Shown piece by piece: positions 81-61,800 of a stretch of DNA of 64,000 nucleotides. The stretch is taken from NCBI GenBank assembly GCA_041694815.1, contig JBGFSC010000033.1, forward strand, positions 1-64,000, written 5' to 3'. The stretch's first letter is position 1. Every line of letters begins with the position of its first letter. The position numbers were made by a program, and so were the translations under genes. This DNA comes from Elusimicrobiota bacterium. GTDB lineage: Bacteria; Elusimicrobiota; Elusimicrobia; UBA1565; JACRDR01. Below the pieces are notes generated by a model. That model saw only the letters and a list, made by a program, of their open reading frames with translations, did not search any database and was not told the DNA's origin.

Positions 81-147
81 AGGTCTATAGGGTCCGATTC
101 GTCTGGGCCTTAAGGCTCAGGCAAATTGGGGCGCCGCCCTTAACAAT
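81..147 (+). promoter_or_regulatory. Shared upstream motif copy 1 (AGGTCTAT...GGGCCTTAAGGCTCA, then -10-like hexamer)
   Basis: Similar to motifs at 10058-10118 and 18638-18718; AACAAT lies 22 nt after CTCA and 7 nt before the GTG at 155. Confidence 0.55.
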
Positions 148-154
148 TAAGGTA

Positions 155-550
155 GTGCGAAAAATTATCCTCGCGGTATTTTTGGCTGGACTAAGCGCTG
201 CGGCTTACGGCGGAGCCGCGGACCTGCTGCGCCAGTGCCTGGCGTCCAAGAAACTCTCCTCCGCGCGGGTCGATGTCGATGCCGTGAGTGAGCACCTGCC
301 GGGCGCCTCGGCAGCGGAAATTGACAGCCTGGTCGATACGGCGGTGGTTCTGGCGTCCTACGGGAATAAGTCCGTACTTTCCACGGAAGACTTCATCAAC
401 GCGATCGATCAACGCGCCGCCCGAGCGGCGGGCATCAGCGTAAAAGAGTACCGCGGCTTTAAAGAGCGCCTAAGCCGGCCCGCGGCGGGAGTCGTCTTGG
501 ATACGTTCCGTGAGAAGGCTGAGAAGCGCTTCAAAATCCGATGGGAATGA
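155..550 (+). CDS. Signal-peptide protein with AAA+ lid-like fragment and conserved C-terminal module
   Basis: MRKIILAVFLAGLSAAAYG signal; VDVDAVSEHLPGASAAEIDSLVDTA...EDFINAI resembles FtsH-type AAA lid; ends EKAEKRFKIRWE. Confidence 0.75.
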   Translation: MRKIILAVFLAGLSAAAYGGAADLLRQCLASKKLSSARVDVDAVSEHLPGASAAEIDSLVDTAVVLASYGNKSVLSTEDFINAIDQRAARAAGISVKEYRGFKERLSRPAAGVVLDTFREKAEKRFKIRWE

Positions 551-9983: not shown

Positions 9984-10057
9984 TCGGGCTCCTGCTACAT
10001 ATATATACGAGTGAACCCCACCTTTTGTTCCCTTCTTCTGCAGAAATTCTGCAACAA

Positions 10058-10118
10058 AGGCCTATTGGGGTATTAGGTCTTTAGTCTCATGCGGGGGTAT
10101 GAGATCCGGGGTTACTAT
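10058..10118 (+). promoter_or_regulatory. Shared upstream motif copy 2 (AGGCCTAT...AGGTCTTTAGTCTCA, then TACTAT)
   Basis: Similar to 81-147 and 18638-18718; TACTAT 23 nt after CTCA. Confidence 0.55.
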
Positions 10119-10128
10119 AAGCCAGGTC

Positions 10129-10791
10129 ATGAAAAGGCGATTTCGTCGATATGGCCTAGCGGCTCTTTTCCTATGCCAGGGCCTGGGACTTTCCGGATTT
10201 CGCCGGCCTGAATCCAGCGTGGGAAAGCCATCGAACCCGGAACCAAAATTTCCTTTGCTTGGCGACGTCGTTGACCTGGATGCAGTCACAGAGGAGCTGT
10301 TAGGAGAGTTGGATAAGTTGCGAACTTCGACGAGTCCGTCGCCGTTAGGCGTTATGGATCCTCGTGATCTAATTGACCCGGCGTTAGGCGGGCGCTTGGC
10401 AAGGTCGATTCAATTCCGTTTGCCTGGGCCGGCCGAAGCGGAACGTCTTTTGCGGTATTATGTACGCAAGAAACGTATATCACTGGACATCGATGTTGAT
10501 TTGCGGGCGGTGGCCTCCGAGGCTCAGGGTTTATCCTCTGCTCAACTAAAACAGCTAGTCGATGAGGCAGGCTCACAGATGGCGTGTCGGTGGGCGTCTT
10601 CAGTGAATGCGGATGATTTCCGTGAAGCATTGGAGGTGTTGCAAATGGGGCCGGTCCAAGCTGAGGAAGCGAGGAGAAGAAGAAGGGAAGAAGCAATGAA
10701 TGAGCTGGCAGAGCGTTTCCGCCATCAGGCGACCGCCTTGCCTGGCGAAGGAATCGAAACCGCTGTAGAGCGATTTAGGTTGCAGTGGTAA
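10129..10791 (+). CDS. Signal-peptide protein with AAA+ SRH/lid fragment and conserved C-terminal module
   Basis: LIDPALGGRLARSIQFRLP...DVDLRAVA...GLSSAQLKQLVDEA...DDFREAL..MG resembles the C-terminal half of an FtsH-type AAA domain; ends ETAVERFRLQW. Confidence 0.78.
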   Translation: MKRRFRRYGLAALFLCQGLGLSGFRRPESSVGKPSNPEPKFPLLGDVVDLDAVTEELLGELDKLRTSTSPSPLGVMDPRDLIDPALGGRLARSIQFRLPGPAEAERLLRYYVRKKRISLDIDVDLRAVASEAQGLSSAQLKQLVDEAGSQMACRWASSVNADDFREALEVLQMGPVQAEEARRRRREEAMNELAERFRHQATALPGEGIETAVERFRLQW

Positions 10792-10838
10792 CTGTTCCTA
10801 AAGTTGAGAATGCGTGGAAAGTGGATGCCTGGCACCCA

Positions 10839-11516
10839 ATGAATCGCCTGGGGCGATCCGTTCGTCTTTTGATCTTTTTGTCGAGCGCGTTGACGCCGGC
10901 CTCCGCCATCGGGCCTCGTGGTCCGGGGACGCCGCCGCCAACGTCTTCGGATCCCGCAAAAACCCGGTTAGCGGATTTGCTAGCCAAGCTGCGAGGAACA
11001 GGAAACAAAATTTGTGCAGCAACAATATTACTCACGGGTGTAGAGGATAGAGATCGAGACGACATACTTTCTTTGTTGGATCCGATGCCGATAGTTGTAG
11101 TTCATCCCGATGGGCTCCGTGCGAACTATGTCGGAGGAGCCTCCCAGCGTCTTAATGAGGTGTTCAGCCAGGTGACGGCTAAGCACGACGGAGGAGCTTT
11201 GTATCTTGATGATTTTGATGAATTTAATAAGGACCCGGTATTAAGGTCGCAAACGATAATGGGCATAGATACGGCGGTCGCGCTGAGCAAACTAAAGGGA
11301 TTTCCGGTATTGATATTTGCGCAGACCAATTGGCCGGAGCGCCTAGACCCTGCTTTGCGTCGCCGCTTCGCGTACGTGATCAACTGGCGAGCGGACGAAC
11401 TTCTTCGTGATAAGCAGATTAAGAGGCTGCAAGAACTCCTGGCCGATCAGGCTTCGCCGGTCTCTGCTTGGGCGGATGCCGAGACTGCGGAGCGGCGCTT
11501 CAAGCTGCCTTGGTAG
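10839..11516 (+). CDS. Signal-peptide protein with degenerate AAA+ core (no Walker A) and conserved C-terminal module
   Basis: YVGGASQRLNEVF, LYLDDFD, AQTNWPERLDPALRRRF; ends ETAERRFKLPW. Confidence 0.78.
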   Translation: MNRLGRSVRLLIFLSSALTPASAIGPRGPGTPPPTSSDPAKTRLADLLAKLRGTGNKICAATILLTGVEDRDRDDILSLLDPMPIVVVHPDGLRANYVGGASQRLNEVFSQVTAKHDGGALYLDDFDEFNKDPVLRSQTIMGIDTAVALSKLKGFPVLIFAQTNWPERLDPALRRRFAYVINWRADELLRDKQIKRLQELLADQASPVSAWADAETAERRFKLPW

Positions 11517-12184: not shown

Positions 12185-13501
12185 GTGACAAACTTCGTCG
12201 ATAAAGTCCGCATTTTTGCCAAGGGCGGGCAGGGGGGAGACGGCTGCCTTTCCTTCCGTCGGGAGAAATACGTAGAATTCGGTGGACCCGACGGCGGAGA
12301 CGGCGGGCGGGGCGGCGACGTCTACCTCGTCGCCGACCGTAATCTTGGCACCCTGCTGGATTTTACCCGTCGGCCCCATCTCGAGGCTTTATCCGGAGAA
12401 AACGGCAAGGGCGCCAATAAGACGGGGCGGGGGGCAGACGATCTTATCGTCTCGGTCCCGATCGGGACGATGGTCTACAAAAGGGACCAATTGCTCGCGG
12501 ATCTAGTCGAAGAGGGCCAGAGGGTGCTCGTCGCCAAGGGCGGCCGCGGCGGCCGAGGTAACCTGTCATTCAAGAGCCAGCGCAACACCGCTCCCCGCAT
12601 CGCCGAGAAGGGCGAGCCCGGCGAGCAGGCCGTCGTCGACCTGGAGCTCAAGCTCATCGCCGACGTGGGCCTGACCGGGCTGCCCAACGCGGGCAAGTCG
12701 ACGCTGCTGGCCAGGCTCAGCCGCGCGCGCCCCAAGATCGCGGATTACCCGTTCACCACCCTGGCGCCGCATTTAGGCGTCGTCGAGCATAAGCGCTCGA
12801 GCTTCATCATGGCCGACATCCCGGGGCTCATCGAGGGGGCGCATCGCGGCAAGGGCTTGGGTGACGCCTTCCTGCGCCATATCGAGCGCACGCGCCTGCT
12901 GGTTCACTTGGTCGATCCGTTGGGCTACGGCGGCAAAAGCGCCGAGGATGGGGTGCGCGTCATCGAGGCGGAGCTTAAGTCTTTTTCCGCGAGGCTGGCG
13001 AAGAAGCCGCGCGTTCTGGTGGTCAACAAGATGGATCTGCCCGAGGGCCCCGTCGTGCTGCGCCGATTGCGCGGCCGCTACAGAACCCGTCCCGTCTTCG
13101 GCATCTCCTGCGCCTCGGGGCAGGGGGTCTCCGAGCTCGCCGACCGGCTCGCCGAGGAGCTCGCCCGCCTGCCTCGGGAGGGCGAGGGGGCGGCCCGGCC
13201 GGCCGGGCCCGAGAAGCTCCTGGTTAGCCCCGGCTTCGAGATCCGGCGGAGGCAGGGGGGCTTCGAGGTCTCGGGAGCCTACGTCGAGCGGATCGTGCGC
13301 ATGGCCGACCTGTCGCTGCCCGAATCGGTCGCGCGGCTGCAGCTGGCCCTGCGGAAGGTCGGGGTCGACCGTGCGCTTCGTAAGGCCGGCATCCAGAACG
13401 GCGACGTCGTTCGCGTGGCGGGGCACGAATTCGAGTGGTCGGACGCCCCCTTCGCCCCACCGCCCCGCATCCCCCGTACCCGGCGCACCCGCATCCAATG
13501 A
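12185..13501 (+). CDS. obgE: GTPase Obg/CgtA
   Basis: Gly-rich Obg fold, [21 protein letters not shown]; rplU-rpmA-obg synteny. Confidence 0.97.
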
Positions 13502-14379
13502 ACACGCTGCGGGAGTACGAGGCGCGGATACAGGACGTGGGAGGCATCGACGGCGCCGTCTTGTTCTGCGAGCGCCTGGCCTCCCGCCACTACGAGAATT
13601 TCCCCGTCGCCTCCAGGCTGCTGCCGCGGCACACCCGGCGCCACGTGGCCGTGCTCTACGCCTTCGCGCGCATCGCCGACGATTTCTCCGACGAGGCCGA
13701 GTACGAGGGCGTGCGCCGCCAGCGCCTGGAGGACTGGCGCAGGCAGCTGTGGGCTATCGGCAAGGAGCCGCCCCGGCATCCGGTGTTCCTGGCCATGGAG
13801 GAGAGCCTCCGGCAGCTCGACCTGCCCCGCGAGCCCTTCGACGACCTGCTGAGCGCGTTCCTGCAGGATGTCGACAAGCGCCGCTACGCCAGCTTCGATG
13901 AGGTGGCCGATTATTGCCGGCGCTCCGCTAATCCCGTGGGCCGGATCGTGCTCATGATACACGGCTACCGCGATCCGGAGCTCTTCAAGCTCTCCGACGC
14001 CATCTGCACCGGGCTGCAGCTCGCCAATTTCTGGCAGGACGTGTCCGTCGATCTGAAAAAGGACCGCATCTACATCCCGGAGGAGGATTTCCGCCACTTC
14101 GGCTACGGCGAGGCGGACCTTCGCATGGGAGTCGTCAACGAGCGCTTCCGCAACCTCATGAAGCACCAGTGGAAGCGCACCCGGGCCCTCTTCGAGACCG
14201 GCCGGCACCTGTGGCCGAGGCTCCGGTTCCCGCTCTCCTGGGAGATCAAGCTGACCTGGCTGGGGGGAAACCAGGTGCTTCATAAGATACGCCGCGCCGG
14301 TTTCGACACGCTGCACCAGCGCCCAGCCCTGACGAAATGGGATTGGATGAAGCTGCTGTTGTTCGGGTGGGCGGCGTGA
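13498..14379 (+). CDS. hpnC: Squalene synthase HpnC
   Basis: HYENFPVAS, YAFARIADD, YCRRSANPVGR, LQLANFWQD. Confidence 0.93.
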   Translation: MNTLREYEARIQDVGGIDGAVLFCERLASRHYENFPVASRLLPRHTRRHVAVLYAFARIADDFSDEAEYEGVRRQRLEDWRRQLWAIGKEPPRHPVFLAMEESLRQLDLPREPFDDLLSAFLQDVDKRRYASFDEVADYCRRSANPVGRIVLMIHGYRDPELFKLSDAICTGLQLANFWQDVSVDLKKDRIYIPEEDFRHFGYGEADLRMGVVNERFRNLMKHQWKRTRALFETGRHLWPRLRFPLSWEIKLTWLGGNQVLHKIRRAGFDTLHQRPALTKWDWMKLLLFGWAA

Positions 14380-15224
14380 CGGGCGGGGAGGCGGCGGCCC
14401 GGCGCTCGAGCTTCTACGTGGGGTTCCTGTTTTTGCCCTCCGAGAAGCGCCGCGCGCTCACCGAGGTCTACGGCTTCTGCCGGATGATCGACGACATCGT
14501 CGATTCGGGAGAGCTCACCCGTGTTGAAGCCGAGAAGAGGCTTGAGTTCTGGCGCGAGGAGATCGCGCGGCTCTACGAGGGCAGGCCGGGCCATCCCGTG
14601 TCCCAGGCGCTCGCCTACCCCGTCGAGCGCTTCGCCCTGCCGCGGCAGGCCTTCCTGGACCTCATCGGCGGCTGCGCGATGGACTTGGAGCGCCGCCGCT
14701 ACGAGGATTTCAAGGAGCTGGAGGCCTATCTCTACGGCGTCGCCGTCACGGTGGGGCTTCTCTGCGTCGAGATTTTCGGCTACCGTCACAGCGACGCGGC
14801 GCGCGTTCGGGAATACGCGACGCACCTGGGCTACGCCTTCCAGCTCACCAATATCCTGCGCGACGTGGGCGCCGATCTCGAGATGGGGCGGATCTACCTG
14901 CCCCTCTCGGAAATGCGCGCGGCAGGCTACTGCGTCGAGGAGCTCCATAGCCGCCAGCATAACAAGGCCTTCGTGGCGCTCATGGAGGCGCAGTATGCGC
15001 GCGCCAAGGGCTATTACGCCCGCGCGCGGACCCTGCTGGACCCGCGCGATCGCGCGGGGATGCTCGCCGCCGAGCTCATGGCCCGTCATTATGAAGGGGT
15101 GCTCGACGAGATACGCCGGCGGCAGTACAGGGTCTTCTTCGAGCGGATCGGCTTGAGCCCCTGGCAGAAGCTGCGTTTGGCCGCGGCCGGCTGCGCCTAC
15201 AGCTATGGGCTTGTGACACCATAA
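14376..15224 (+). CDS. hpnD: Presqualene diphosphate synthase HpnD
   Basis: SSFY..F.FL, DDIVD, FQLTNILRDVGAD; last codons supplied by the MITE. Confidence 0.9.
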   Translation: MTGGEAAARRSSFYVGFLFLPSEKRRALTEVYGFCRMIDDIVDSGELTRVEAEKRLEFWREEIARLYEGRPGHPVSQALAYPVERFALPRQAFLDLIGGCAMDLERRRYEDFKELEAYLYGVAVTVGLLCVEIFGYRHSDAARVREYATHLGYAFQLTNILRDVGADLEMGRIYLPLSEMRAAGYCVEELHSRQHNKAFVALMEAQYARAKGYYARARTLLDPRDRAGMLAAELMARHYEGVLDEIRRRQYRVFFERIGLSPWQKLRLAAAGCAYSYGLVTP

Positions 15225-15476
15225 TATGGACGATCTGGAGGCCCGAGCTTGAGACGATTTCGAGGCGCGACGAGGGAGCATAGCCGTAGGCTATGTGACC
15301 GAGGAGCAACGATGAAATCGGCCAAGCTCGGGCCTCCCCGCAGGGGCCGGGCGATTTTGGGCTGCGCCAGCGTCGCTCGTCGCTCACATACCGCTGCGGG
15401 TATGCTCGCTCCTCGCTCCTTGGCTCGCTCCAAAATCGCCTCGGCCAGATCGTCCATATTATGGTGTCACAAGCCC
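15207..15476. mobile_element. 270-bp non-autonomous element (MITE family B)
   Basis: Perfect 32-bp terminal inverted repeats (15207-15238, 15445-15476), TAT on both flanks, two internal hairpins, no transposase. Confidence 0.88.
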
Positions 15477-15477
15477 T

Positions 15478-16827
15478 ATGGCCTTCTCTGACGTCGTCGT
15501 CCTGGGCGGCGGCTTCGCCGGCCTCGCCTGCGCGAGCGCGCTGGCCGAGCGCGGCGCGCGCGTGACCTTGCTCGAGAAGAAGCCCCATCTGGGCGGGCGC
15601 GCCTATTCCTTCAGGGAGCCCGGGACAGGCGCCGTCATCGACAACGGACAGCATCTGTTCATGGGCTGCTACGGCGAGACGAAGGCCTTCCTGGGCCGCG
15701 TCGGCTCGGCTTCCTTGTTGCGTTTCTCCCGGGGGACTCGCGTCGACTACCGCGACGGCATGGGCCGGCGCGACGCGCTGTCGTGCCCCGCGGCGCTGCC
15801 GGCGCCCTGGCATCTGGCCTTCGGCGTGCTCGGGCTCGCGGGGCTGTCCTTGCTCGACAAATGGAATCTCCGGAAGCTCAAGACCTTCTTCGATGAGGGC
15901 GGCAGGGACCGCTCCGCCGAGCTCGATGCCATGACGGCGCGGCAATGGTTGAGTTCCGTCGGCCAGTCGCCGCGGGCCCAAGAGAGGCTCTTTGACCCCA
16001 TCGCCATCGGAGCCTTGAACGAGTCGCCGGAGCGCGCCTCGGCGCTGGGCCTGGCCCAGGTGCTCGAGCGCCTCTTCTTCCGCGACGCCGAGGATTCCCG
16101 GCTCGGCCTCGCGTCCGTTGGCCTAAGCGAGCTCTATACCGAGCAGGCGCGGCGATTCATCGAGTCCCGCGGCGGCCGCGTCGTGCTCGGCAAGAAGGCC
16201 GCCGCCTTGGAAAGCGAGGGCGGCAGGATTTCCGCGGTGAGAACCTTATCCGGAGAGCGCATCGCGGCCGATGCGTTCGTCTCGACCCTGCCGCCGTGGG
16301 CATTGGACAAGCTCGAGCGGCCCCTTGAGCTTCACGGGGAGTGGTCGGGACTTAAGCCCTCGCCGATCATCGGCATTAATCTGTGGCTTGATCGGGCCGT
16401 GCTGGAGGAGCCCTTGATCGGGCTCCTGGGAACCTCGATCCATTGGATTTTCAACAAGAACGCGCTCTGGGGGCTCCGCACGCAAGAGCAATATCTGTCG
16501 CTGGTCATCAGCGGAGCCCATGATTTCCTCGGCGCCCCGCCCGCCTCCTTGCTGGAATTGGCCAAGCGGGATCTGGAGCGCTGCTTGCCCGATTTTAAAA
16601 AAGCTAACATAAGCCGATGGTACGTGGTCAAGGAGCCCTTCGCGACGCTGTCTCCGGTTTGCGGCTCCGACCGGCTGCGGCCGCGCCACGAGTCGCCGCT
16701 GCCGAACTTTTTTTACGGCGGGGATTGGACGCAGACCGGGCTTCCGGCGACCATCGAGAGCGCGGTGCAAAGCGGCCACGCCTGCGCGCGGCTGATAGGG
16801 AGGGGAGTCCATGATCAAGTCCGATAA
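15478..16827 (+). CDS. hpnE: Hydroxysqualene dehydroxylase HpnE
   Basis: GGGFAGL FAD motif, [27 protein letters not shown]. Confidence 0.93.
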
Positions 16828-17380: not shown

Positions 17381-17704
17381 AAAGCGGTAACTTTCGCCTG
17401 CAAACGCGGCTTCGGCCTGTTCCCCAGCGCCGCTACTTGAGGCGTACCTTTTAGTAGCCGCGTTCGTCGCTCTTTGATTCGTCTCGAAATCCGTATTTTT
17501 GCGTTCGAACCGTGTTTTTGAACGGCTTCTAGAAAAATATCCACCTTATTGCAAAAACCATTTATAACAATTGCGTTTTTTGCGCCAACTCCGTCTGAAA
17601 AGAGTTGGAGCGAAAAGACTTTATAGAACATGCGCTTTTTTACCCAATGTGGATATTTTTCGAGTCGGGACGGAACTTATTCGTGGCTCGATCGTATATA
17701 TAGT

Positions 17705-18574
17705 ATGGCGATGATCGAGTTAGACGGCGAGCGATTGCTCGCCGAATGCGACACGAAGAAAGATGCCGAACTGTTTGCCAGGCTGGAGCGCTTTCGAGGA
17801 GAAGAGTCCGAGTCGCTCGCGCAGACATTGGCATGTTTGGCGACGTTGGATAGACGCAAGGCGGCTGATGAGCTTGCGGACGGTTCTCTGTTTCTCTATT
17901 GCACTCGGAAACTCGGTTATTCCGAGGCAGAAGCCTATATGAGAATCCGGGTGGCGCGAGCCGCCAACGACTTTCCGCGGATTCTAACGATGATCGGTCG
18001 CGGGCAGATCCATGTCAGCGCGGTCGCCCGGATAGCGCCTTATCTGGATTCCGAAAATTATAGGAGCCTGCTGGGCAAGGCCAGTCGGCGAAGCCGCGAG
18101 GAACTCGATCGGCTGATTGCGGAATTAGAGCCGCAGATAGAGAGGCGACCGGTCATTCGCTCTCTATCCGTGGGGAATAATGCTCGCGCTCCGATTGTCA
18201 CAGCGGAATCGCTCTTCGAACCGCCTTCGCCGCAGCTTCACTCTTCTTTCTCGCAGTCGGCATCGGGAAGGGAAAATAAAATCGAGATGAAGATCGAGCC
18301 CTGGCTGCCGACGGCCGTGCCTGATAACGCCGGCGCGTGTTCCGTTCGCCCGCCTGCCGGCCGGGTTTTATTTAGCTTCGTCGGCAGCGAGGCCTTTCGG
18401 GCTAAATACAAGCGGGCGAAGGAAATATTGCTTCATAAATATCCCGATGGAAGTCCAGAGAAGATATTCGATGACGCGTTGGAAGCGCTGTTGGACAAAA
18501 AAGATCCTTGGCGCCGATTGGCGAGGAAAGAAAGGCGCCGGGCGATGGCAGGCTCTGAGGTGGATTCTTCATAG
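17705..18574 (+). CDS. DUF222-like protein of the kind usually fused to an HNH nuclease; no HNH seen
   Basis: SLFLYCTRKLGYSEAEAYMRIRVARAANDFPRIL pattern; lower-GC surroundings. Confidence 0.6.
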   Translation: MAMIELDGERLLAECDTKKDAELFARLERFRGEESESLAQTLACLATLDRRKAADELADGSLFLYCTRKLGYSEAEAYMRIRVARAANDFPRILTMIGRGQIHVSAVARIAPYLDSENYRSLLGKASRRSREELDRLIAELEPQIERRPVIRSLSVGNNARAPIVTAESLFEPPSPQLHSSFSQSASGRENKIEMKIEPWLPTAVPDNAGACSVRPPAGRVLFSFVGSEAFRAKYKRAKEILLHKYPDGSPEKIFDDALEALLDKKDPWRRLARKERRRAMAGSEVDSS

Positions 18575-18724: not shown

Positions 18725-19432
18725 ATGCGTTTGCCGTGGATTCTCTGCTGTTTGCTCGCCGTCGCACCGTCTCTGGCGGCCGAAACCGTCGAGTCGATCA
18801 AGGCCGGCTCCGGCGTTGACTTCGGAGAAGGAGCGACGGCGGTTGGCCTGACGGGAAATCCCTCGAATTCCTCTTTCGGGTCTCAATTCGCCGCCCTATT
18901 TAAGCTCGGCCAAGCCAGGAGGCAGACGCCTGGAGTTAGGCGCAGGGGGCCGATCATCGTCAAGGAGCCGGCGCCTCCGCCGTTTCCGAAAAATCACGAT
19001 TATTGCTGGCCAAGCGCCTTGGACCGCGCGGCGGGTTTCGTGATCGGAGTTGTTTTTCCGACGGTGCTTCTAACCGCCTTGAGTTTTGCCTCGGGCATCG
19101 GCTTGGGGACCGGCTTAGAGAGTGCTACCAGCATGGCCGGCTTCCTATTGCCCCGACTCGCGGGAGTCCTCTACGGGGTCACTACGGTGATGGCATGGGC
19201 TCATATAGTGAATTGGATGCTCCGTCAGACATGGATTCAATGGCCGAAAGGCCGCGCGAAACCGGTGGATCCCATGGCGATCGTAATGGCGTTCGCCCTA
19301 GGATTCTTTTCTCCTCCGCTGGCCGGATTGATCATCGGCTGGAGTATGGGCCGGCATTGGGCGGCGTTCCTATCCCAGAGACTGGGCTGCGCGGTTGAGA
19401 AACTTCTCTATCGAATATGGTATCGCCTATGA
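18725..19432 (+). CDS. Membrane protein, paralog family member 1
   Basis: Signal peptide, ESIKAGSGVDFGE, PIIVKEP..NH..C, several TM segments. Confidence 0.75.
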   Translation: MRLPWILCCLLAVAPSLAAETVESIKAGSGVDFGEGATAVGLTGNPSNSSFGSQFAALFKLGQARRQTPGVRRRGPIIVKEPAPPPFPKNHDYCWPSALDRAAGFVIGVVFPTVLLTALSFASGIGLGTGLESATSMAGFLLPRLAGVLYGVTTVMAWAHIVNWMLRQTWIQWPKGRAKPVDPMAIVMAFALGFFSPPLAGLIIGWSMGRHWAAFLSQRLGCAVEKLLYRIWYRL

Positions 19433-20562
19433 AACCGATTTTATTGGCTCTTGCCCTGGCCCTCGCCGCCGACGCGCCGGCCTCGGCCGGCGAAAGCGAG
19501 GAGCTCAAGGCGGCTCTCGAGGAGACCCGGGGCCTGCTGGACATGAACAAGCCCCGCCGGGAATTCGAGCGCCATAGCGGCGATATGCGTTCGGTGGCCT
19601 TTTCCTCCGACGGCTCCATGATCCTCTCTGCCAGCCACGGCAACGTGTTCCTCTGGGGGGTCGACGACCTGGAGTTTATCACTAAATTTGAGCCGCCGAA
19701 CGAATACGGTGGCTTCCACGGGGCCCAGCTCAGTCCGAAAGATGAAACGCGAATCCTTACCGCTAGCACGAACTGGGTCATCCTGTGGCGGTGGAACCAG
19801 GAGGAAGGCGCGCTCGAGCGGGTCAAGAAACTCGACGTTGGGGGAGACGGCGCCGAGATCGCGATCTACAGCACCGATGGCTCTCGCATCGTCACGGCTC
19901 ACGGCAAGAGCGCTATCGTATGGGACGCCGATGGTAACAAGTTGGCCCTCATCGAGGCGCCGGGCGACATCCATTCGGTTTCGATCAACCCGGAAGGCTC
20001 GAGATTGGTCACGGTGCATCGGGACGGGTCGGCCAGCGTGTGGGAAGTCGGAGTCCTGAAAAAGAAGCTTCTCCTGTTTGATGTGATTGGTGGGAAAAGG
20101 CTTCTGGACCTTCCCAAAGGCAATCGGCGGGGAGCCGCGCTTTTTAGCCCCGATGGTTCCAAGTTCCTGACCCTCGGCGGAGATTTCAGGCTGCGGGATG
20201 CGTCGAACTGGCAAGATTTGGGGATTTTCAAGCCAGAACAGGGGGTGTTTTCGACGGCGGCGTTCAGCCGGGACGGCTCGCGAATTGCGGCCGCTAACGA
20301 TAAGGAAACGGTGGTATTCAACGCCAGGACGGGTGAGATCGTCAAGGTGCTGCCGCCCGCCCTTTGCGTGGGATTTAGCCCGGAGGGTACTTATCTGGCG
20401 ACCGGAGGGATCGATCGCGTGGTTCGAGTTTGGAAGATAGCCTTCTCGTCGCAGGAGCTCAAGGCCGTGGAGCATCGTCTAAAGAATAAGGCGAACGCCG
20501 CCGATCCTGAAAAGGCGAAGGACGAGATCCAGACGGCCGAGGAGCGCTTTAGGCTTGATTAG
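19429..20562 (+). CDS. Secreted WD40-repeat protein with conserved C-terminal module
   Basis: Signal peptide; repeats SVAFSSDG / FSPDG / VRVWK; ends QTAEERFRLD. Confidence 0.88.
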   Translation: MKPILLALALALAADAPASAGESEELKAALEETRGLLDMNKPRREFERHSGDMRSVAFSSDGSMILSASHGNVFLWGVDDLEFITKFEPPNEYGGFHGAQLSPKDETRILTASTNWVILWRWNQEEGALERVKKLDVGGDGAEIAIYSTDGSRIVTAHGKSAIVWDADGNKLALIEAPGDIHSVSINPEGSRLVTVHRDGSASVWEVGVLKKKLLLFDVIGGKRLLDLPKGNRRGAALFSPDGSKFLTLGGDFRLRDASNWQDLGIFKPEQGVFSTAAFSRDGSRIAAANDKETVVFNARTGEIVKVLPPALCVGFSPEGTYLATGGIDRVVRVWKIAFSSQELKAVEHRLKNKANAADPEKAKDEIQTAEERFRLD

Positions 20563-21157
20563 GGTCCTAGCGGCAGCTTTGGTATTGTCTTATTTTTGCG
20601 TGCCAGCCGGCGCCGGCGAGCTGGAGGAGGCCAAGCAGGAGTCCGGGATCGAGTTCGGCGAGGCGGGGGCCGCCGCTTCGGTCCTAAGTCCGATCCCCGC
20701 GCGCGCCCCGGGCCCGATCGCGGGCCTGATGCATTTGGTTCAGAAGGCCAGGCGCGGAGGCCCGCCGGCGCCCATCGTCGTTTCCGAACCCATCAATCAT
20801 AAGAATTGTTTGTGCAAAAACAGCGCGGACGAAGAATTTCTAGGTTATATAGTCGCTCTCTTGCCCCTAGCCGCCGGGATTCTCGTAATGATCGTTTTTG
20901 GAGACCCATTTTTTGGCGGCGTGGCACGCGCCGCGATTCCCCAAATGATTCTGGCGCGACTTGCCGCATCCGCGCTTGTCACCGCCTGGTTTTGTCGCTT
21001 GCGGAGTCCTATAAAATTCGATTGGTTAACGGGCACCACTCTCGGGCTCATCGCTGTGACGACGGCGGTTTTTCCGCCTATTGGCGGAGCTTTCCTGAGC
21101 TACTTATTGGTTGGGGATCTAATTAGGTGGTTCCATCATTTCCTGCGCCGAGAATGA
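20555..21157 (+). CDS. Membrane protein, paralog family member 2
   Basis: EEAKQESGIEFGE, PIVVSEPINHKNC, TM segments, RWFHHFL. Confidence 0.78.
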   Translation: MIRVLAAALVLSYFCVPAGAGELEEAKQESGIEFGEAGAAASVLSPIPARAPGPIAGLMHLVQKARRGGPPAPIVVSEPINHKNCLCKNSADEEFLGYIVALLPLAAGILVMIVFGDPFFGGVARAAIPQMILARLAASALVTAWFCRLRSPIKFDWLTGTTLGLIAVTTAVFPPIGGAFLSYLLVGDLIRWFHHFLRRE

Positions 21158-21744
21158 AGACCTCTATTTTCTTGACCTTAATCGTTCTGGTGGCTTCGGG
21201 TCAGCGAGAGAGGCTTTTCGCCGGCCAAGCCGAGGCGATAAGGCATGAGTCGGGAATTTTTTTCGGGGAAGGCATGTCCGTGCCCTCCTCGGTCGCGGCG
21301 GAGGACAGGCGGATCGGCCCCTCCGCCCTGCTGTTCGCCTTCCAAAAAAAGAAAGCCGGGCCGAGAGGGCCCATCGTAGTGAAGGAACCGATCAATCACA
21401 AGGTTTGTTCTCCAAATCGGCGCGAGCAATTGGCCGGAGCGGTGGCTGGAATTATCGTCCCGACCCTTGCGGTCTTGGGAATGGAACTCGCTTGGGCCTT
21501 TAGTGGTGTTTCCTCACCCATGACTTTCCTGGCGCCGCGGGCCATCGGCATGGCGCTGGCCGGAGTTTTGGCCTTGGCCTGGGGCCGGTCTCGTAAAACC
21601 AGTCTTTCCGAGAATGCGATGTTTTCGACCATGGCGGCCGCCACGGGCTTTATATCCCCGTCCGCCGGCATATTCGTGTTAGGGATGGTCTTTACGAGCC
21701 AGGTCTTGGCCTCCTGGTTCCACCGCCGTCTTCATCTCTTATGA
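21154..21744 (+). CDS. Membrane protein, paralog family member 3
   Basis: EAIRHESGIFFGE, PIVVKEPINHKVC, TM segments, SWFHRRL. Confidence 0.78.
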   Translation: MKTSIFLTLIVLVASGQRERLFAGQAEAIRHESGIFFGEGMSVPSSVAAEDRRIGPSALLFAFQKKKAGPRGPIVVKEPINHKVCSPNRREQLAGAVAGIIVPTLAVLGMELAWAFSGVSSPMTFLAPRAIGMALAGVLALAWGRSRKTSLSENAMFSTMAAATGFISPSAGIFVLGMVFTSQVLASWFHRRLHLL

Positions 21745-22298
21745 AGAACTCAGCTTTCAGATACGTATTCCTTGGCCTCGCCTTCGCGGCGGGCGTACTG
21801 CACGCCGGGTCCCTCGAGGAGGCCAAGGATGGGTCGGGAAGCGTGTTCGGGGAGTCCGCTGGCTCTTCGGCCTCCGCCCCGCCCGCGCGGCTAGGGATTA
21901 CCGATAAGGTCCGACCGCTCGTAGCCAGACTTTACCGGCCCCGTAGGGAGCCGATCATCGTCAAGGAACCGCCCAATCATCGGCTCTGCTTTCCAGATAA
22001 TAAGGACGCTAAAATCGCGACCTGGATCGCCGTCATCCTGCCCGCGACGGCCATTACGGTGCTGGCCGCCACCTCGGCCTTGGGGCTGTCGCCCATTTCC
22101 TTCGCAGTGCCGGGCGCCATCGGCGCGGGACTGACCATCATCGGCCTAATTAGGGCTGACATGTTTAGGCCCAGCTGGAAGGCGATCGCCGTCGCCGCCG
22201 CCTTGGGTTTCTTCTTGCCGGCTATTCCGGTGCTTTTCTGGGGCGCCGGCTTATGGGATGGCGCCGTGTCCTGGATTCATCGGCTGAGGCATCGATGA
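21741..22298 (+). CDS. Membrane protein, paralog family member 4
   Basis: EEAKDGSGSVFGE, PIIVKEPPNHRLC, TM segments, SWIHRL. Confidence 0.78.
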   Translation: MKNSAFRYVFLGLAFAAGVLHAGSLEEAKDGSGSVFGESAGSSASAPPARLGITDKVRPLVARLYRPRREPIIVKEPPNHRLCFPDNKDAKIATWIAVILPATAITVLAATSALGLSPISFAVPGAIGAGLTIIGLIRADMFRPSWKAIAVAAALGFFLPAIPVLFWGAGLWDGAVSWIHRLRHR

Positions 22299-23409
22299 AT
22301 ATCCTCTTTATGGCCGCAGCCGTGCTCGCGGCCTCGTTGCCCGGCCGCGCCTTCGCCCAGGCTCGAGGCATACTCGCGGAGCGCAAGGCCTTTCTCGAGG
22401 AGATCGAAGCGCAGCGGCCCACCGAGCCGACGCTGACCCACACCCTGCAGGCTTCGGGACCCATCGCGTTTAACGGAGACGGTTCCCTGGCGCTTATCGG
22501 CTCGACCTTGTTCGACGCCAGGAGCTGGAAGGTGGCCGGATATTTGGACGGCCATAAGCAGGCGGTGACCGCCGCGGCCGTTTCCCAGGACGGCAGGATC
22601 GCGGCGACGGCGAGCTGGCACAGCCGGGACAAGACGGCGATCCTATGGGAGCTTCCCTCCGGCCGCCAGGCTCGCGCGATCAAGGGGCCTTCGGCCATAC
22701 TCTCGCTCGCCTTGAGCCCCGACGGTTCGCGGCTCGTCACGGGACATCATAATAAAAGCGCGATCATCTGGGATGTCGCCACCGGCAAGAGGGTGCTCGA
22801 ACTCATAGGGAATGAGAATACGGTCTACGCCGTGGCGTACAGCCCCAGCGGAGAAAAGATCGCCACGGCGGGGGCGGATGAAAAAATCCATATCTGGGAC
22901 GCCAAGACTGGAAAACGGACGCATTGGGCCGAGGGTAGCCTTGGCGCGATCATCTCCTTGGCGTTTACTCCAAACGGCGATAAGATCATCAGCGGTTCCG
23001 ATAAAGGGATGGTGGAAGCCACGCCCGTCAACGGCGGTCGAGGATGGAAACCTCTCTTTAAGAACGTCGGCAAACCGTATTCAATCGCCGTCAGCCCTAA
23101 TGGGAAAAAAATCGTGGCGGCCGGCACGATACCCAGGCTGTTTGATGAGGTGAGCGAACGGTTCTCCTTTTTCGAGCTGACGGCCTCCCGGTCGAAGGGG
23201 ACTTCTTTTCCGTCGCGTTTTCTCCCGGGGGTTATGAAATATTGATCTCCGGGCTCGATGGGATCACCAGGGTATGGTCCATCGCTATGTCGCCCGAAAG
23301 GATACGGGAGAAGCTCAAGGAGTTCGACGAGCGCCTCAGGCAATCCGCGGCCATCCAAGCCGCCAACGGAGAAGCCATCGACGCCGAGGAGAGGTTCAAA
23401 TTATGGTAG
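22295..23409 (+). pseudogene. Secreted WD40-repeat protein with conserved C-terminal module, frameshifted near 23178
   Basis: The -1 frame continues DGLPVEGDFFSVAFSPGGYEILISGLDGITRVWS...AIDAEERFKLW*, completing the last WD repeat. Confidence 0.8.
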
Positions 23410-23990
23410 CGCGCCTATGCCTCGCCTTCATTCTATATTTGCCCGTCATGTCGCGGGCCGGGGAGACGGAAAAGCTCAAGCAGGAGTCCGGTATTCTATT
23501 TGGAGAGAGTCGGCAAAACACCGGTGCCGTGTCGTTCTTTAGGCTGCCGGGACGCAAGGCCGGACCCGCGGCGGCGAACGCCGCGGCGCCCAAGGCCATG
23601 CCGCCCAATATCATCCCTCCGCCGCGATTTAACAGGTATGACGTTCCTACCTGGGAAATTTTAGCAAGCTTCTTGGTGACGGTCGCCCTGCCTTTGGCGG
23701 CCGCCGGGGCGGCTCAGCTGGGCATTCAGGCGAGCATACAGGCGAGCGCAGGGCTTCCTTTGATCGGCTGGCGCGTGTTGGGCGGCTTGGCATGCGGCAT
23801 TTGGGCGCTCGCCTGCGGTTGGGCCAATCCGAAGCAAAGGATGAATAAATGGGTTTTCGGCGCCTTGATGGCGGGGCTCGGGAGTTTTTTGCCGGGCGGC
23901 GCCGCTTTTTTGCTATCTGCCGTCTCCATGAACCAATTGCTCGGCCCGGTCGCCTCATGGATACACAGCGCCCTTAAGCGAGAGCCGTGA
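23403..23990 (+). CDS. Membrane protein, paralog family member 5
   Basis: Signal peptide, EKLKQESGILFGE, TM segments, SWIHSAL. Confidence 0.75.
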   Translation: MVARLCLAFILYLPVMSRAGETEKLKQESGILFGESRQNTGAVSFFRLPGRKAGPAAANAAAPKAMPPNIIPPPRFNRYDVPTWEILASFLVTVALPLAAAGAAQLGIQASIQASAGLPLIGWRVLGGLACGIWALACGWANPKQRMNKWVFGALMAGLGSFLPGGAAFLLSAVSMNQLLGPVASWIHSALKREP

Positions 23991-58110: not shown

Positions 58111-58884
58111 ATGCCGTTTTACGCGCGCGCGCGCTTCTATAGCGTCCTGATGTGGATCGCCGGGCCGGCGCTTGGGGGTGATGTGCTCCAGAAAGAACTC
58201 GGCCGCATGTCCGACCGAAACCCCGCCGTTCGACGGCAGGCGGCCGCTCGGCTGGCTCATGCCGAAGGGCGCTCGGCTGCGGCGGCGCTCGAGTCCGCCC
58301 TGAAGGATTCCGACGCTTCCGTCCGCCGCGAGGCCGCGCTGGCCCTGGGCCTGCGCGGGTCTCTGGGGTCCGCCCAAGTCCTGATCTCCTGCCTCAAGGA
58401 CCGGGACGCGCAGGTCCGCCAGGGCTGCATCCGGGCGCTGGGACTGATCCGGGCACCCCAGGGGGTCGCACCGCTGTCTTCGGAGCTTAAGCGCGGGGAC
58501 GCGCATGAGAAGGCGGCGGTCTTGGAAAGCCTGGGCCATATAGGCGGCCCCGAGGCTTTCGGCGCCGTCCGCGATGCCTTGAGCGCCTTGCGCGGGAACC
58601 GTCGCCGTGGAGCGCCTATCGATCAGCCCCTGATGCAGGAGGAAGAGGCGATCCGGGCCTTAGGCAGGCTGGGCCGACCCGAGGGAATCCCCTTGGCGAA
58701 AGAGGGACTGAGCTCTCCGGACGATCGCATCCGCGCGGTTTCCTGCTTGGCACTGGCTCGGATGGGCGACGGCTCCGAGCGCCTGCGCTGCGCGGCCCTT
58801 CTGTCTCATCCGGACCCGTTGGTCCTCAAGGATGCGGCCGAGGCCTTGAGCCGGATGGAAGCAAGGGAGAAGGCGCGGGAATAA
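58111..58884 (+). CDS. HEAT/PBS-lyase repeat protein
   Basis: Repeated LKD.D..VR..AA.ALG. Confidence 0.85.
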   Translation: MPFYARARFYSVLMWIAGPALGGDVLQKELGRMSDRNPAVRRQAAARLAHAEGRSAAAALESALKDSDASVRREAALALGLRGSLGSAQVLISCLKDRDAQVRQGCIRALGLIRAPQGVAPLSSELKRGDAHEKAAVLESLGHIGGPEAFGAVRDALSALRGNRRRGAPIDQPLMQEEEAIRALGRLGRPEGIPLAKEGLSSPDDRIRAVSCLALARMGDGSERLRCAALLSHPDPLVLKDAAEALSRMEAREKARE

Positions 58885-58885
58885 T

Positions 58886-61800
58886 ATGGCACGCCCTATC
58901 GCCCTGCTGGCCGGCCTTCTTCTGGCGCCAAGCTTTTGTTGGGCGGTCCCTCAGGATATCTCCGGCGGCATCTCCACCGCCGAACCGGGCTCGAGGAAGG
59001 TATTCTATCACGAATCCTATGATCGGACATGGGTGTTCTACCAGAACAGCTTAAGCAAGTTCGCCTACCAGTCCTACGACGGGGTCAACTGGACGGCAGA
59101 CACCCAGGTTTTTCCGGCGGCGGATGTTTCCGCGGCCGGCTGCACCGGAACCCCGGGCCCCGTGGGTAGCATCTGGTATGTCGCTTCCTCCACCCGCGTT
59201 TATGCCATTGCTGGGGAGGATTCCGCGAACGAAACCAACGACAATACCAACGCCAACTATCCCAACAAGGTCTATTTGCGCCGCGGAGACTTAAATTCGG
59301 ATGGGACGATCACCTGGGGCAGCGTGGCTTGCCGGGCCCGAGACATCACCTTTGACGGCGGATTGGGGGATTATCTGGCGGGGATGTCCGTGTCCATCGC
59401 GGTTCCCGAGGATGAAACCGCAAACGGCGGCAACAACCTCATGTGGGTGGCTCATTTTAGGCGCAGGACCACCGTTTTCCGCCAGGCCCCAGCCGGACAG
59501 AACCAAATCACGGCGGCGACTCTGGGCGGCGGAGTGGATTTGCAAGACGGCCACGCCCTTCAAGAAGCCAGCAACGCCAATGGCTTTGAGAGCGTGGTGC
59601 CTATCAACGATGCCGGGACCTGGAAATTCTTGGTAGGCAATAATGATCGTTCCGATCAATCGGATCCGATCGTAGACCGTTTTGTAGTCAGCGCCGCGGC
59701 CCGGGAGCTTGGCGGAGAACTCGACCCTACCGGTCCCGGGATCAACAACAACGCCTACTCCGTCTCCTTGGCTCCCGAGGGGGCCTCCTCCATTGTCCAT
59801 GCGGCCTATGTCGACAGCAGCGGCCGTATCGCGTATCAAAGGCGCACAGGCGCGGGGACCTGGGCCGCGGCGATCGTGGTGGATGCTTGCGCGGCGGTCA
59901 ATAGCTCTCCGTGCAAAAATCCGTCCGTGGCTTATGTGCCAGACCCCGCGACCTTTAATAGGGTGTATATCGTATATCTTTCCAGCTACGGCGCCGTCAA
60001 TTATGCCGTAGGCCCGGCCACCGCCACGGCAGCCGGAGAATTCACCGTCATCCAAGGCTGGCAGTCGAGCGGATCGAATCCGATCGTTCCGGTTAAAAGC
60101 ACGGCCCCGGCGCCGCTGGCGGTCGTTTGGAACGACGCCTCCCCACAAGCCAAGATCGACTTTATCATCACCTCCGGATACGCGTCCCCGACTGTCAGCT
60201 CGGTGGCCGAAAGCCCCGGCAAGGCCTGGTTAAGCTCCAACAAATTCGATCTGTTGATAACGGGGTCCAACTTCCTGGATCTGGGAGGCACGAAGAAGCC
60301 AAAGGTCAAGCTGTTGGAGAATGGAGCGGATCAATCCGCTATCACGGTCACTTCCACCACCTTCGTCAATGCCAGCACTCTTCGGGCTTCCATCGTCCTG
60401 ATCGCGCCGACGACCTCCTATGACGTGAGGGTTATCAATCCCGACGCGAAGTTTACCGTGTTTCAGGACACGGTGACCATTTCGTCTCCCACCCTGAGCT
60501 CTCTGACGGATGCAGACGGGAACATTCTTTCCGGAGGTATTTTCCCCAACAATAACGGTACGACCGCCATGACGCGGGATGTGACGGTCAACGGTTCTAA
60601 CTTTCAGAACTGGGGCTCCAGCGTTCCCAAGGTCTCCGTCGTTTCAGGGATTTCCTTATATGCCATTACGGGCCTTAGCAGCAACTCGTTTGTCGCAAGA
60701 CTCAAGATTTCAACGACGACGGTTGCCGGCACCTATGCCCTCACGGTTCAGAATCCGGACAATCAATCCGTGACCCAGTCCTCCACCTTTACGGTGACCC
60801 GGCCCTCGGCCACTATCAACTATCCCATCGAAGGCAACGGCCTGCTGGGCGGATTTACCACGGGCTTTGCCACCCTCAACGGGGTGGCAGACTATGATAC
60901 CACGGGGGACGGCCTGGGGGATTCGGTCGCCGGGATCACTCAAAATACATCGGATATACGCATCGTCTCCCTTGGAGGCGCCGGTTGTCCTGCAAACGGC
61001 TATCTCTGGAACGGAAGCGGATTCGCCGCGCCCGGGAGCTTCGCGGATCAGGAGCAGGAGTGGCAGGCGGCCAGCGCCCCGAGCCCGTGGGCGTACTCCA
61101 CCCTCAATATGAATCTATTCCAAGCGGTCGATACCGAAGGGTGTCCCTTCCGGCTGGAATCCCGGGGAAGGAGCTCCGATGGGGGGCGAAGCATGGCTTC
61201 CGGAGCCGGAATCGTCACCCTGACCATGGACCGCAAAAGGCCGGTGATCGATGTCACCTCTCCACCGGGCGGCCAGATCATCAATACGGCCGATAATATT
61301 TTCATGGTTTTCAGCGATGTCTCCGGAGTCAAGAAAGTGGAATTCACGCTCCAGGCGGATACCGAAACGGCCCGTTACTGGACCGGATCCTCCTGGACGG
61401 CGAACGAGATGTGGCTTTCCACCCCGGCCAGTCCCCAGATGCAGTTCAACCCTCCCACCGCCAGCAACAATGTCACCATCAGGACGATAACGGACGATCT
61501 CAAGCGCCCGGCCTGGGTGGATGGATGGAAATATCGGATCAAGGCCAGGGCCACCGACCGGTTGGAGCAATTGGGTTATGCTCCCGGCGGGGCGTCTGCC
61601 CCCACCGAAACGGTGTTCTTCTACGACGTTTCGGCTCCTACGGTGACCTTGGAGTCTCAATGGCTGAACGTCTCCACATGCACCGTGGCCTCCGGTTGCG
61701 CTACCAGCTGGAAAAGGTCCGTCCCGTCGATCGGCGGCGGCATTTCCGACAATGTTTCGATCCTGGAGGCGATCCACAACCCCAACGTCAAATTAAGGAT

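What the first reader, a model, noticed from the sequence alone, without database searches (positions are those of the whole stretch)
18725..23990. Translationally coupled seven-gene array: five paralogous membrane proteins interleaved with two tagged WD40 proteins
Seen: order M-WD40-M-M-M-WD40-M, every junction overlapping. The M proteins share signal peptide + E..K..SG..FGE, then a basic patch + PI[IV]V[KS]EP..NH..C (4 of 5), divergent TM segments and a W[FI]H end (4 of 5). Inference: a conserved leader with a variable membrane domain suggests a second targeting motif on polymorphic membrane-active effectors, receptors or immunity proteins paired with the tagged proteins. I do not recognise the family.
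Basis: partly seen in the sequence, partly recalled or inferred. Interest (0 to 1): 0.8.

Follow-up and report, generated by a model that had tools for sequence, protein, structure and literature searches.

The report
Tagged protein arsenal from split polyprotein
An uncultured Elusimicrobiota bacterium ends 67 otherwise unrelated proteins, most with a predicted export signal, with the same short peptide, which in related genomes marks the joints of giant multi-part proteins; this seven-gene array is one batch of that set, which likely works in the membrane and cytoplasm of another cell.

Summary
The array is real: M-WD40-M-M-M-WD40-M, all six junctions overlapping. The second WD40 gene is broken by a frameshift. 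The M proteins match no family, and no homologue outside this genome turned up in the protein search. The larger finding lies beyond the array. The WD40 tail, E[TS]AE[EK]RF[KR]L, ends 67 proteins of this genome: 40 WD40-like, 17 M-type and 10 others, including AAA fragments (0-1 reversed-sequence decoys). It is conserved as protein, not as DNA. In three other genomes of the class it occurs only at a midasin-like AAA/vWA/WD40 locus. In two of them it is internal, five times each, mostly just before signal-peptide-like membrane hairpins in polyproteins. This genome keeps those modules as separate coupled genes. M proteins carry a signal peptide, yet their charges predict that the N-terminal side faces a cytoplasm (30 of 31). 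Best reading (0.45): an exported, tag-addressed arsenal acting in a host or prey cell. One-to-one M-WD40 pairing is not supported. The scan noted similar N-terminal leaders on other Elusimicrobiota DNA before; it did not note the C-terminal tag.

The parts
18725..19432 (+). M1: signal peptide, E..K..SG..FGE leader, low-complexity linker, PIIVKEP..NH..C, 3-4 membrane helices; no tag. Its first 350 nt are duplicated (88%) on contig C11 in front of a different 2-helix end
19429..20562 (+). W1: signal peptide, WD40 beta-propeller, C-terminal helix and tag
   Evidence: Pfam PF00400 E 2e-24; AlphaFold model pLDDT 88
20446..20556 (+). C-terminal helix and tag of W1 (core AEERFRL at 20536-20556); outside the propeller, lower confidence in the model
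20555..21157 (+). M2 (TTG start overlapping the W1 stop by 8 nt)
21154..21744 (+). M3; model = short leader helix, disordered linker, four-helix membrane bundle
21741..22298 (+). M4; closest paralogue outside the array is on contig C33 (39% over the membrane part)
22295..23245 (+). W2, first frame: signal peptide and most WD40 blades; runs out of register after about nt 23125-23185
   Evidence: PF00400 E 1e-29
23149..23409 (+). W2, second frame: last blade, helix and tag (core AEERFKL at 23383-23403); its stop overlaps the M5 start by 7 nt
23403..23990 (+). M5: leader and WIH end, lacks PIIVKEP..NH..C
83..550 (+). Another tagged gene of the window (open frame): hydrophobic N-terminus, AAA-lid-like segment (by eye), tag AEKRFKIRW
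10015..10791 (+). Tagged gene (open frame) with an AAA-lid-like segment (by eye), tag AVERFRLQW
10779..11516 (+). Tagged gene (open frame) with a degenerate AAA domain, tag AERRFKLPW
   Evidence: Pfam PF00004 E 1e-6

Best explanation
The array is one batch of a lineage-specific set of coupled genes whose products are predicted to be exported and likely act in the membrane (M proteins) and cytoplasm (WD40 propellers, AAA parts) of a host or prey cell, with the C-terminal E[TS]AE[EK]RF[KR]L peptide likely serving as an address or handle for delivery. Shown: the gene layout; the tag on 67 proteins of at least four unrelated kinds; its conservation at protein level; its internal position before membrane hairpins in polyproteins of relatives that hold the same AAA, vWA and WD40 modules; the charge bias of the M proteins. 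Inferred, step 1: a modular polyprotein (cargo, helix and tag, signal-like helix with A-x-A, second helix, next cargo) and this genome's operons (cargo, tag, stop/start overlap, signal peptide, leader, next cargo) are two states of one design; the direction of change is not established. Step 2: the signal peptide takes each product across the inner membrane. Step 3: leader and/or tag are read by a second machine (a secretin system, or the co-encoded AAA-vWA unfoldase through its intact MIDAS site) that passes the cargo on. Step 4: M proteins insert as hairpins or four-helix bundles with both ends in the target cytoplasm, and the propellers bind target proteins. Duplication, tail swapping and decay (the W2 break) diversify the set.
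For: Tag: 50 strict matches, all within 16 residues of a stop, among 31,135 six-frame ORFs; 0 in reversed ORFs. 65 profile matches. 67 in the final census, on 39 of 45 WD40-like ORFs. All six Arg and all six Leu codons are used. 0 of 119 foreign WD40 proteins and 0 of 81 foreign loci carry it. Independent recovery: a profile built only from this genome found G294, where the motif recurs five times in a 4,285-aa frame. A wider profile found G477, with five copies as A-x2-RF[KQ]I, four followed by x-W, matching the W two places after the core in 19 of 28 extended tags here. The AAA-AAA and vWA modules of G294 have their best matches here on C20 (49% and 35%), as separate genes with hydrophobic N-termini inside a run of five tagged WD40 genes. 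Cytoplasm-type cargo with signal-like N-termini: AAA_5, AAA and peptidase M41; Lon- and Clp-like by eye. M charge bias: Lys+Arg 183 on the N-terminal side against 43 on the other, 30 of 31 proteins. At the first helix N>C in 24 of 33, C>N in 3, against 30 and 28 of 76 in a crude mixed control (Fisher p 0.0008). Fast turnover: paralogues 20-35% identical, GC3 0.64-0.75 against 0.83-0.91 in flanking core genes, and different content between dcd and rplM in relatives. The genome has 4 secretins, 10 T2SSE/PilT-family ATPases and 2 weak TLC nucleotide-transporter-like genes.
Against: No export step was tested, and signal peptides were judged by hydrophobicity and by eye, not by SignalP. No FlhA-type type III gate, contractile sheath or VirB4-family match was found in a 98% complete genome, and no secretin or Omp85 gene lies within 13 kb of a tagged or M gene. 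The first M helix is strongly hydrophobic (median Kyte-Doolittle about 2.0) and should stall in the Sec channel rather than pass as soluble cargo. In the polyproteins the hairpins are flanked by basic residues on both sides, which places the cargo and tag in the producer's own cytoplasm, not outside. The five M proteins of this array lack the tag. About 11 of 16 other genomes with this vWA show no WD40 or tag in the stretches fetched, and G318 has the WD40 and helix without the motif. No host or prey is known. The TLC matches are partial (E 2e-10, 2e-8).
Confidence: 0.45

Rival explanations
1. The proteins work in the producer's own inner membrane, facing its own cytoplasm. The signal peptide plus leader would act as an unusual anchor, equal to the polyprotein hairpin, and the tag would be a client handle for the AAA-vWA chaperone, in a diversifying surveillance or defence system like the MoxR-vWA ternary systems.
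For: Polyprotein hairpins predict cytoplasm-facing cargo. The M charge bias is N-in. ATP-using cargo needs ATP. The MIDAS D-x-S-x-S...T...D is invariant in 15 of 15 aligned vWA domains. Outside this genome the tag is confined to the AAA-vWA-WD40 locus. Kaur et al. describe MoxR-vWA-propeller systems near membranes (PMC7159879, passages).
Against: The leader is charged and follows an A-x-A-like site, so no known route returns it to the cytoplasm. Tagged WD40s have a single hydrophobic segment. One AAA-vWA locus plus one lone vWA would serve 67 clients, and most vWA-bearing relatives show no tag.
Confidence: 0.27
2. The tag is a relic of the polyprotein joint (the basic region ahead of the next signal helix), carried along by duplication and tail swapping. 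The array is an ordinary expansion of periplasmic or surface proteins with no shared pathway.
For: The motif sits where the basic n-region of an internal signal peptide would be. 24 of 66 tagged genes overlap a downstream signal-peptide gene. The expansion is seen in one genome only.
Against: A, R and F stay nearly invariant while flanks and cargo are 20-30% identical and synonymous sites are free. More than half of the tagged genes showed no overlapping signal-peptide gene. The tag sits on unrelated folds.
Confidence: 0.13
3. The M genes are a poly-immunity or receptor array, each M protein pairing with or neutralising a tagged partner.
For: Small, divergent, tandem membrane proteins in a variable spot; M/WD40 interleaving recurs at C54 and C6.
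Against: No toxin or immunity family match. The ratio is 5:2 and not alternating. 17 M-type proteins carry the tag themselves. Most tagged WD40s have no M neighbour.
Confidence: 0.15

Closest known systems
Giant multi-domain membrane proteins of Omnitrophota and other PVC relatives, including Elusimicrobiota (West-Roberts et al., bioRxiv 10.1101/2023.11.21.568195; passages read)
   Same: Very long frames with enzyme domains separated by membrane segments, proposed to be cut into pieces and linked to predation; G294, G477 and G479 have this build.
   Different: The passages propose C39/S8 self-cleavage and say cleavage points are unknown; the words polyprotein, MoxR and WD40 do not occur in the main text. 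Here the joints show a repeated tag plus a signal-peptidase-like motif, and the same modules exist as separate coupled genes. Supplements were not seen.
MoxR-vWA beta-propeller-containing ternary systems (Kaur et al. 2020, PMC7159879; passages read)
   Same: MoxR/midasin-clade AAA+, MIDAS-bearing vWA and beta-propellers in one locus, with variable membrane-linked parts.
   Different: There the propeller (about four blades) is fused C-terminal to the vWA. Here full propellers are separate genes with signal peptides and a tag, the AAA is doubled, and 'Elusimicrob' and 'signal peptide' do not occur in that text. The window's array itself has no AAA or vWA gene.
Chlamydial inclusion membrane (Inc) proteins (PMC3656976, PMC3048545; search listing and abstract starts only)
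   Same: Many divergent proteins sharing a two-lobed hydrophobic segment and little sequence similarity, exposed to a host cytosol.
   Different: Incs are type III substrates. M proteins have a signal-peptide-like start, a shared leader and often a C-terminal tag, and no FlhA-family gene was found.
Motif-defined effector sets such as Legionella Dot/Icm C-terminal signals, oomycete RxLR-dEER and type IX C-terminal domains (recalled, no call)
   Same: A short shared terminal feature on many unrelated cargo proteins, including eukaryote-like repeat proteins.
   Different: Different sequence; about 9 conserved residues after a helix; combined with a signal peptide; also found inside polyproteins; no matching apparatus identified.

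Membership tests
WD40 beta-propeller proteins (W1, W2) | WD40 repeats over the Pfam cut-off and a propeller fold | tested here: met
   PF00400 85 and 102 bits, cut-off 27; W1 model of four-stranded blades, pTM 0.85
Any curated family for the M proteins | Match over the cut-off in Pfam or NCBIfam, or a significant PHROG match | tested here: not met
   Best E 0.02-0.08, all below cut-offs
Any solved fold for the M proteins | Clear structural match | tested here: inconclusive
   Model pTM 0.36; best Z 6.2, rmsd 5.5 over 103 residues (vinculin head), within helical-bundle background; Foldseek best E 1.7
Chlamydial Inc proteins | Two-lobed hydrophobic domain | tested here: inconclusive
   14 of 31 M-type proteins have two predicted helices; the five in this array have three, plus an amphipathic end
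Chlamydial Inc proteins | Export by a type III system | tested here: not met
   No FHIPEP/FlhA match in the 98% complete genome; signal-peptide-like N-termini
Chlamydial Inc proteins | Location in a host-derived membrane | not testable with these tools
   No host known
MoxR-vWA beta-propeller ternary system | MoxR-clade AAA+ with a MIDAS vWA partner | tested here: met
   On contig C20, not in the window: AAA_5 E 7e-30, VWA E 2e-7; MIDAS residues invariant
MoxR-vWA beta-propeller ternary system | About four-bladed propeller fused C-terminal to the vWA | tested here: not met
   The vWA gene ends after the vWA domain in G000 and G005; propellers are separate full-size genes, or are separated by membrane hairpins in polyproteins
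MoxR-vWA beta-propeller ternary system | Third component with variable N-terminus, TPR and propeller | not tested
   Not searched
Giant PVC membrane proteins | Single frame of 10,000 residues or more with interspersed membrane segments | tested here: not met
   Array genes are 185-377 aa; related frames are 1,700-9,958 aa, several cut by contig ends
Giant PVC membrane proteins | C39 or S8 self-processing peptidase | not tested
   Polyproteins were not scanned against Pfam
Type IV secretion substrates with C-terminal signals | A type IV secretion system in the genome | tested here: inconclusive
   PF03135 (VirB4-family) not found; Dot/Icm-type components were not searched
Polymorphic toxin-immunity arrays | Recognisable toxin domain with an adjacent cognate immunity gene | tested here: inconclusive
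   No toxin or immunity family match, but unknown domains cannot be excluded

The most novel reading that the evidence does not exclude
Elusimicrobiota use an undescribed two-step delivery route. Cytoplasm-type machines (AAA unfoldases, protease parts, WD40 adaptors) and hairpin membrane proteins are made either as one signal-peptidase-cut polyprotein or as coupled genes, are addressed by an N-terminal F[GD] leader and a C-terminal RF[KR]L tag, and are installed in the cytoplasm and membrane of a prey or host cell. The tag would also mark the long-sought cut points of the phylum's giant proteins.
Probability: 0.3. Interest if true: 0.88.

Novelty: new variant of a known kind. Interest (0 to 1): 0.67.

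Why it matters
If the tag is an address, one regular expression lists the delivered arsenal of an uncultured bacterium (67 proteins) and gives a bait to find the export machine. It would explain why ATP-dependent enzymes in this phylum carry signal peptides. Independently of that, the one-to-one match between polyprotein joints in some genomes and stop/start overlaps in this one gives testable cut points for the giant proteins of Elusimicrobiota, which the preprint passages read here call unknown.

Tried and rejected
DNA-level repeat or recombination site: rejected. Synonymous sites in the tag are free, and the 6.8-kb region has only one paralogous DNA match inside the array (350 nt on C11). 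Tag as part of the propeller: rejected. It lies after a separate helix in the model and occurs on 26 non-WD40 proteins (17 M-type and 9 others; the tenth 'other' is the W2 fragment). M membrane domains as split-off membrane modules of the polyproteins: not supported, scores no better than reversed decoys. Programmed frameshift in W2: no canonical slippery heptamer in the switch interval, only a T5 run. Whether the break is real or an assembly error is open: no sequencing run was listed, and the metagenome scan gave only distant WD40s (55 loci, at most 44% identical). Homologue searches: M profile, 3 self hits among 8,000 candidates; W1 tail, self only among 7 candidates; the tail-plus-blade profile was swamped by generic WD40s; ESM Atlas gave no usable hit; single-protein AAA scan of genome contigs found nothing. 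Class-wide searches scored only 2-16 candidates per genome, so misses are weak. One weak extra hit, a tag-like stretch in a 61-codon frame of G023 (E 0.018), is unexplained. No convincing promoter or terminator excess. Literature searches that found no description of the tag or the M family: (listings only), and passages of three papers. Meheust et al. 2020 (PMC7785019) is not held and may bear on lifestyle.
Full report
1. The observation. All six junctions overlap, by 4, 8, 4, 4, 4 and 7 nt. The shared M motifs are as described. One correction: W2 is split over two frames, with the switch between about nt 23125 and 23185. No reads were listed to tell a real break from an assembly error. Array genes have GC3 0.64-0.75 against 0.83-0.91 in flanking core genes. 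The interval is variable: G005 has about 0.7 kb between dcd and rplM, G004 has 5.4 kb of unrelated genes, and in G001 and G002 the two genes lie on different contigs with other neighbours. Three of four loci found with the related AAA alignment are titled Elusimicrobia bacterium (56-63% identical), which places the genome in Elusimicrobiota by inference.

2. The M proteins. They have no Pfam, NCBIfam or PHROG family. A profile search returned only three of themselves among 8,000 scored candidates, and the ESM Atlas gave nothing usable. The M3 model shows a short leader helix, a disordered linker of about 55 residues and a four-helix bundle (pTM 0.36), with no fold match above background. I hand-picked 35 M-type genes in the genome from motif and profile hits, and a 36th is cut by a contig start. 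Further look-alikes with other leaders exist and were left out. The build (signal peptide, E..K..SG..F leader, Pro/Ala linker, glycine-rich hairpin) recurs weakly in 10 of 392 other class genomes, five of them clear by eye (G412, G031, G005, G280, G131). In G313, G514 and G515 the leader lies inside larger proteins. So the leader is a class-wide module, in line with an earlier scan note on an FDG leader (e1-4359880).

3. The tag. The strict pattern A[ED][EKDQRL]R[FY][KR][LIF] ends 50 of 31,135 six-frame ORFs and 0 reversed ORFs. It occurs only once elsewhere, as a second, internal copy in a double-propeller gene. A looser pattern gave 63, of which I dropped 2 as chance. The profile found 65 places. 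The final census, with four profile hits added by hand, is 67: 40 WD40-like, 17 M-type and 10 others. The others include an FGE-sulfatase-like protein (by eye), a degenerate AAA domain, AAA-lid-like pieces (by eye) and the W2 fragment. 39 of 45 WD40-like ORFs are tagged. A crude ATG-only test found a signal-like start in 56 of 67, and most of the 11 misses show one by eye behind another start codon. Codon use is free, so the constraint is on the protein. In the W1 model the tag follows a well-predicted helix outside the propeller and is itself uncertain (pLDDT 62-69). None of 119 foreign WD40 proteins and none of 81 foreign loci carry it.

4. Relation of M genes to tagged genes. Of 14 M loci, 7 bear the tag on M proteins themselves. 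Of the other 7, four have a tagged non-M gene within 3 kb (C38 here, C54 with M-M-M-WD40-M, C6, C33), and three have none. Random places reach about 9%. Only about 7 of the tagged WD40 genes have an M neighbour. M proteins and WD40s therefore look like two cargo classes of one programme, not fixed pairs.

5. Relatives. The tag profile built from this genome alone gave only weak hits in 10 of 300 phylum genomes and in 2 of 5 family genomes. One weak hit, G294, was real: a 4,285-aa frame (cut by the contig start) with double AAA, vWA and several propellers. The motif occurs there five times, four of them directly ahead of a hydrophobic helix ending P..A-x-A, a short loop and a second helix. G005 has one tagged WD40 behind separate AAA and vWA genes. 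A profile including these found G477 independently, with five copies in two frames: two before hairpins inside the frame, one internal without a hairpin, two near stops. G479 (9,958 aa) has a looser [KR]-V-K-F motif before most later hairpins. In these genomes the tag was found only at this locus. The vWA occurs in 17 of 393 class genomes, mostly in long frames. About 11 of the 16 others show no propeller or tag in the stretches fetched, G131's propeller is cut by a contig end, and G318 has the propeller and helix without the motif. In this genome the AAA and vWA are separate genes on C20, inside a run of five tagged WD40 genes. 24 of 66 tagged genes overlap the start of a following signal-peptide gene. 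Polyprotein joint and stop/start overlap are thus equivalent positions.

6. The topology paradox. By the positive-inside rule (established knowledge), the side of the M proteins that holds leader and linker, and the tag in two-helix members, faces a cytoplasm: 183 against 43 Lys+Arg, 30 of 31 proteins. At the first helix the split is 24 against 3 of 33, while a crude mixed control splits 30 against 28 of 76. A cleaved signal peptide would put that side in the periplasm. The same clash holds for AAA_5, AAA and M41 domains behind signal-like starts, which earlier notes also saw for Lon and FtsH (e1-7655375, e1-7655371). In the polyproteins there is no clash: the hairpins leave the cargo in the producer's cytoplasm.

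7. Mechanism. I rank delivery into another cell first (0.45), because it resolves the paradox for both soluble and membrane cargo and fits fast, lineage-specific turnover. The genome has 4 secretins, 10 T2SSE/PilT-family ATPases, 4 Omp85 genes and 2 partial TLC matches. It has no FlhA, sheath or VirB4-family match, and none of the secretin or Omp85 genes is within 13 kb of a tagged or M gene. Against it: the hydrophobic M helices should stall in Sec, the polyproteins point to the producer's own cytoplasm, and no host is known. An own-membrane AAA-vWA client system (0.27), a poly-immunity array (0.15) and a functionless relic (0.13) remain open. Binding could not be modelled.

8. Known systems and novelty. 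The closest published things are the giant PVC membrane proteins (bioRxiv 10.1101/2023.11.21.568195, passages), the MoxR-vWA propeller systems (PMC7159879, passages) and, by analogy, chlamydial Inc proteins (listing). A defining feature of each was tested and not met. Searches showed no description of the tag or of the M family; subscription papers and supplements were not seen. I class it as a new variant of a known kind (an effector-like set defined by a terminal motif), with a 0.3 chance that it marks an undescribed delivery route. Interest 0.67.

Noticed in passing
window 17630-18574: DUF222-like gene (Pfam E 0.018, below cut-off) with low GC3 (0.60) just upstream of the array; three paralogues on C20, C12 and C16; a 140-nt AT-rich stretch before it (17392-17532) recurs on C52 and C40.
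   Followed up: partly
window 83-550, 10015-11516; L047 (C8:6634-7077); L024 8639-9250: An FtsH-like protease appears in separate pieces, each with a signal-like start: degenerate AAA domain (tagged), AAA-lid-like domains (tagged, by eye) and a lone M41 peptidase domain (untagged, Pfam E 2e-22). They could be dominant-negative or self-assembling parts.
   Followed up: partly
L037 (G000:C38:140775-154423): Run of 11 co-directional tagged WD40 genes on the window's own contig, one a double propeller with an internal tag; recent duplications share N-terminal sequence.
   Followed up: partly
L022 (G000:C12:19178-23784): Array of eight M-like genes with another leader (ENASEA..ALE.GL...AG.RAEE) but the same basic patch and PI[IVT]V[KRQ]EP motif and two helices; untagged and not in my counts.
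   Followed up: no
G000 contigs C8, C19, C25, C37, C38, C40: About ten FGE-sulfatase-like proteins (by eye), several directly behind tagged genes; one is itself tagged (C34).
   Followed up: no
L045 2571-3107 (G000:C11:3568-4107): The promoter region, signal peptide, leader and linker of M1 are duplicated at 88% DNA identity in front of a different, shorter membrane domain: direct evidence of head/tail swapping.
   Followed up: yes
L110 12826-13821 (G294): A transposase-like frame (by eye) begins right where the polyprotein ends, 14 residues after its fifth tag, so the polyprotein may have been cut by an insertion sequence.
   Followed up: no
window 58850-64000 (frame runs to C38:100225): 13,791-codon open frame, already covered by earlier notes.
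   Followed up: no
window 13435-16827: Squalene/hopanoid synthesis genes of the hpnC-hpnD-hpnE type (by eye) directly upstream of dcd; the hpnE-dcd link is kept in G001, G004 and G005.
   Followed up: no
L291 1453-1638 (G023): Isolated tag-like stretch (SAEKRFRFP after a helix-like segment) in a 61-codon frame behind a propeller/TPR-like gene; may be a decayed tail or chance (E 0.018).
   Followed up: partly
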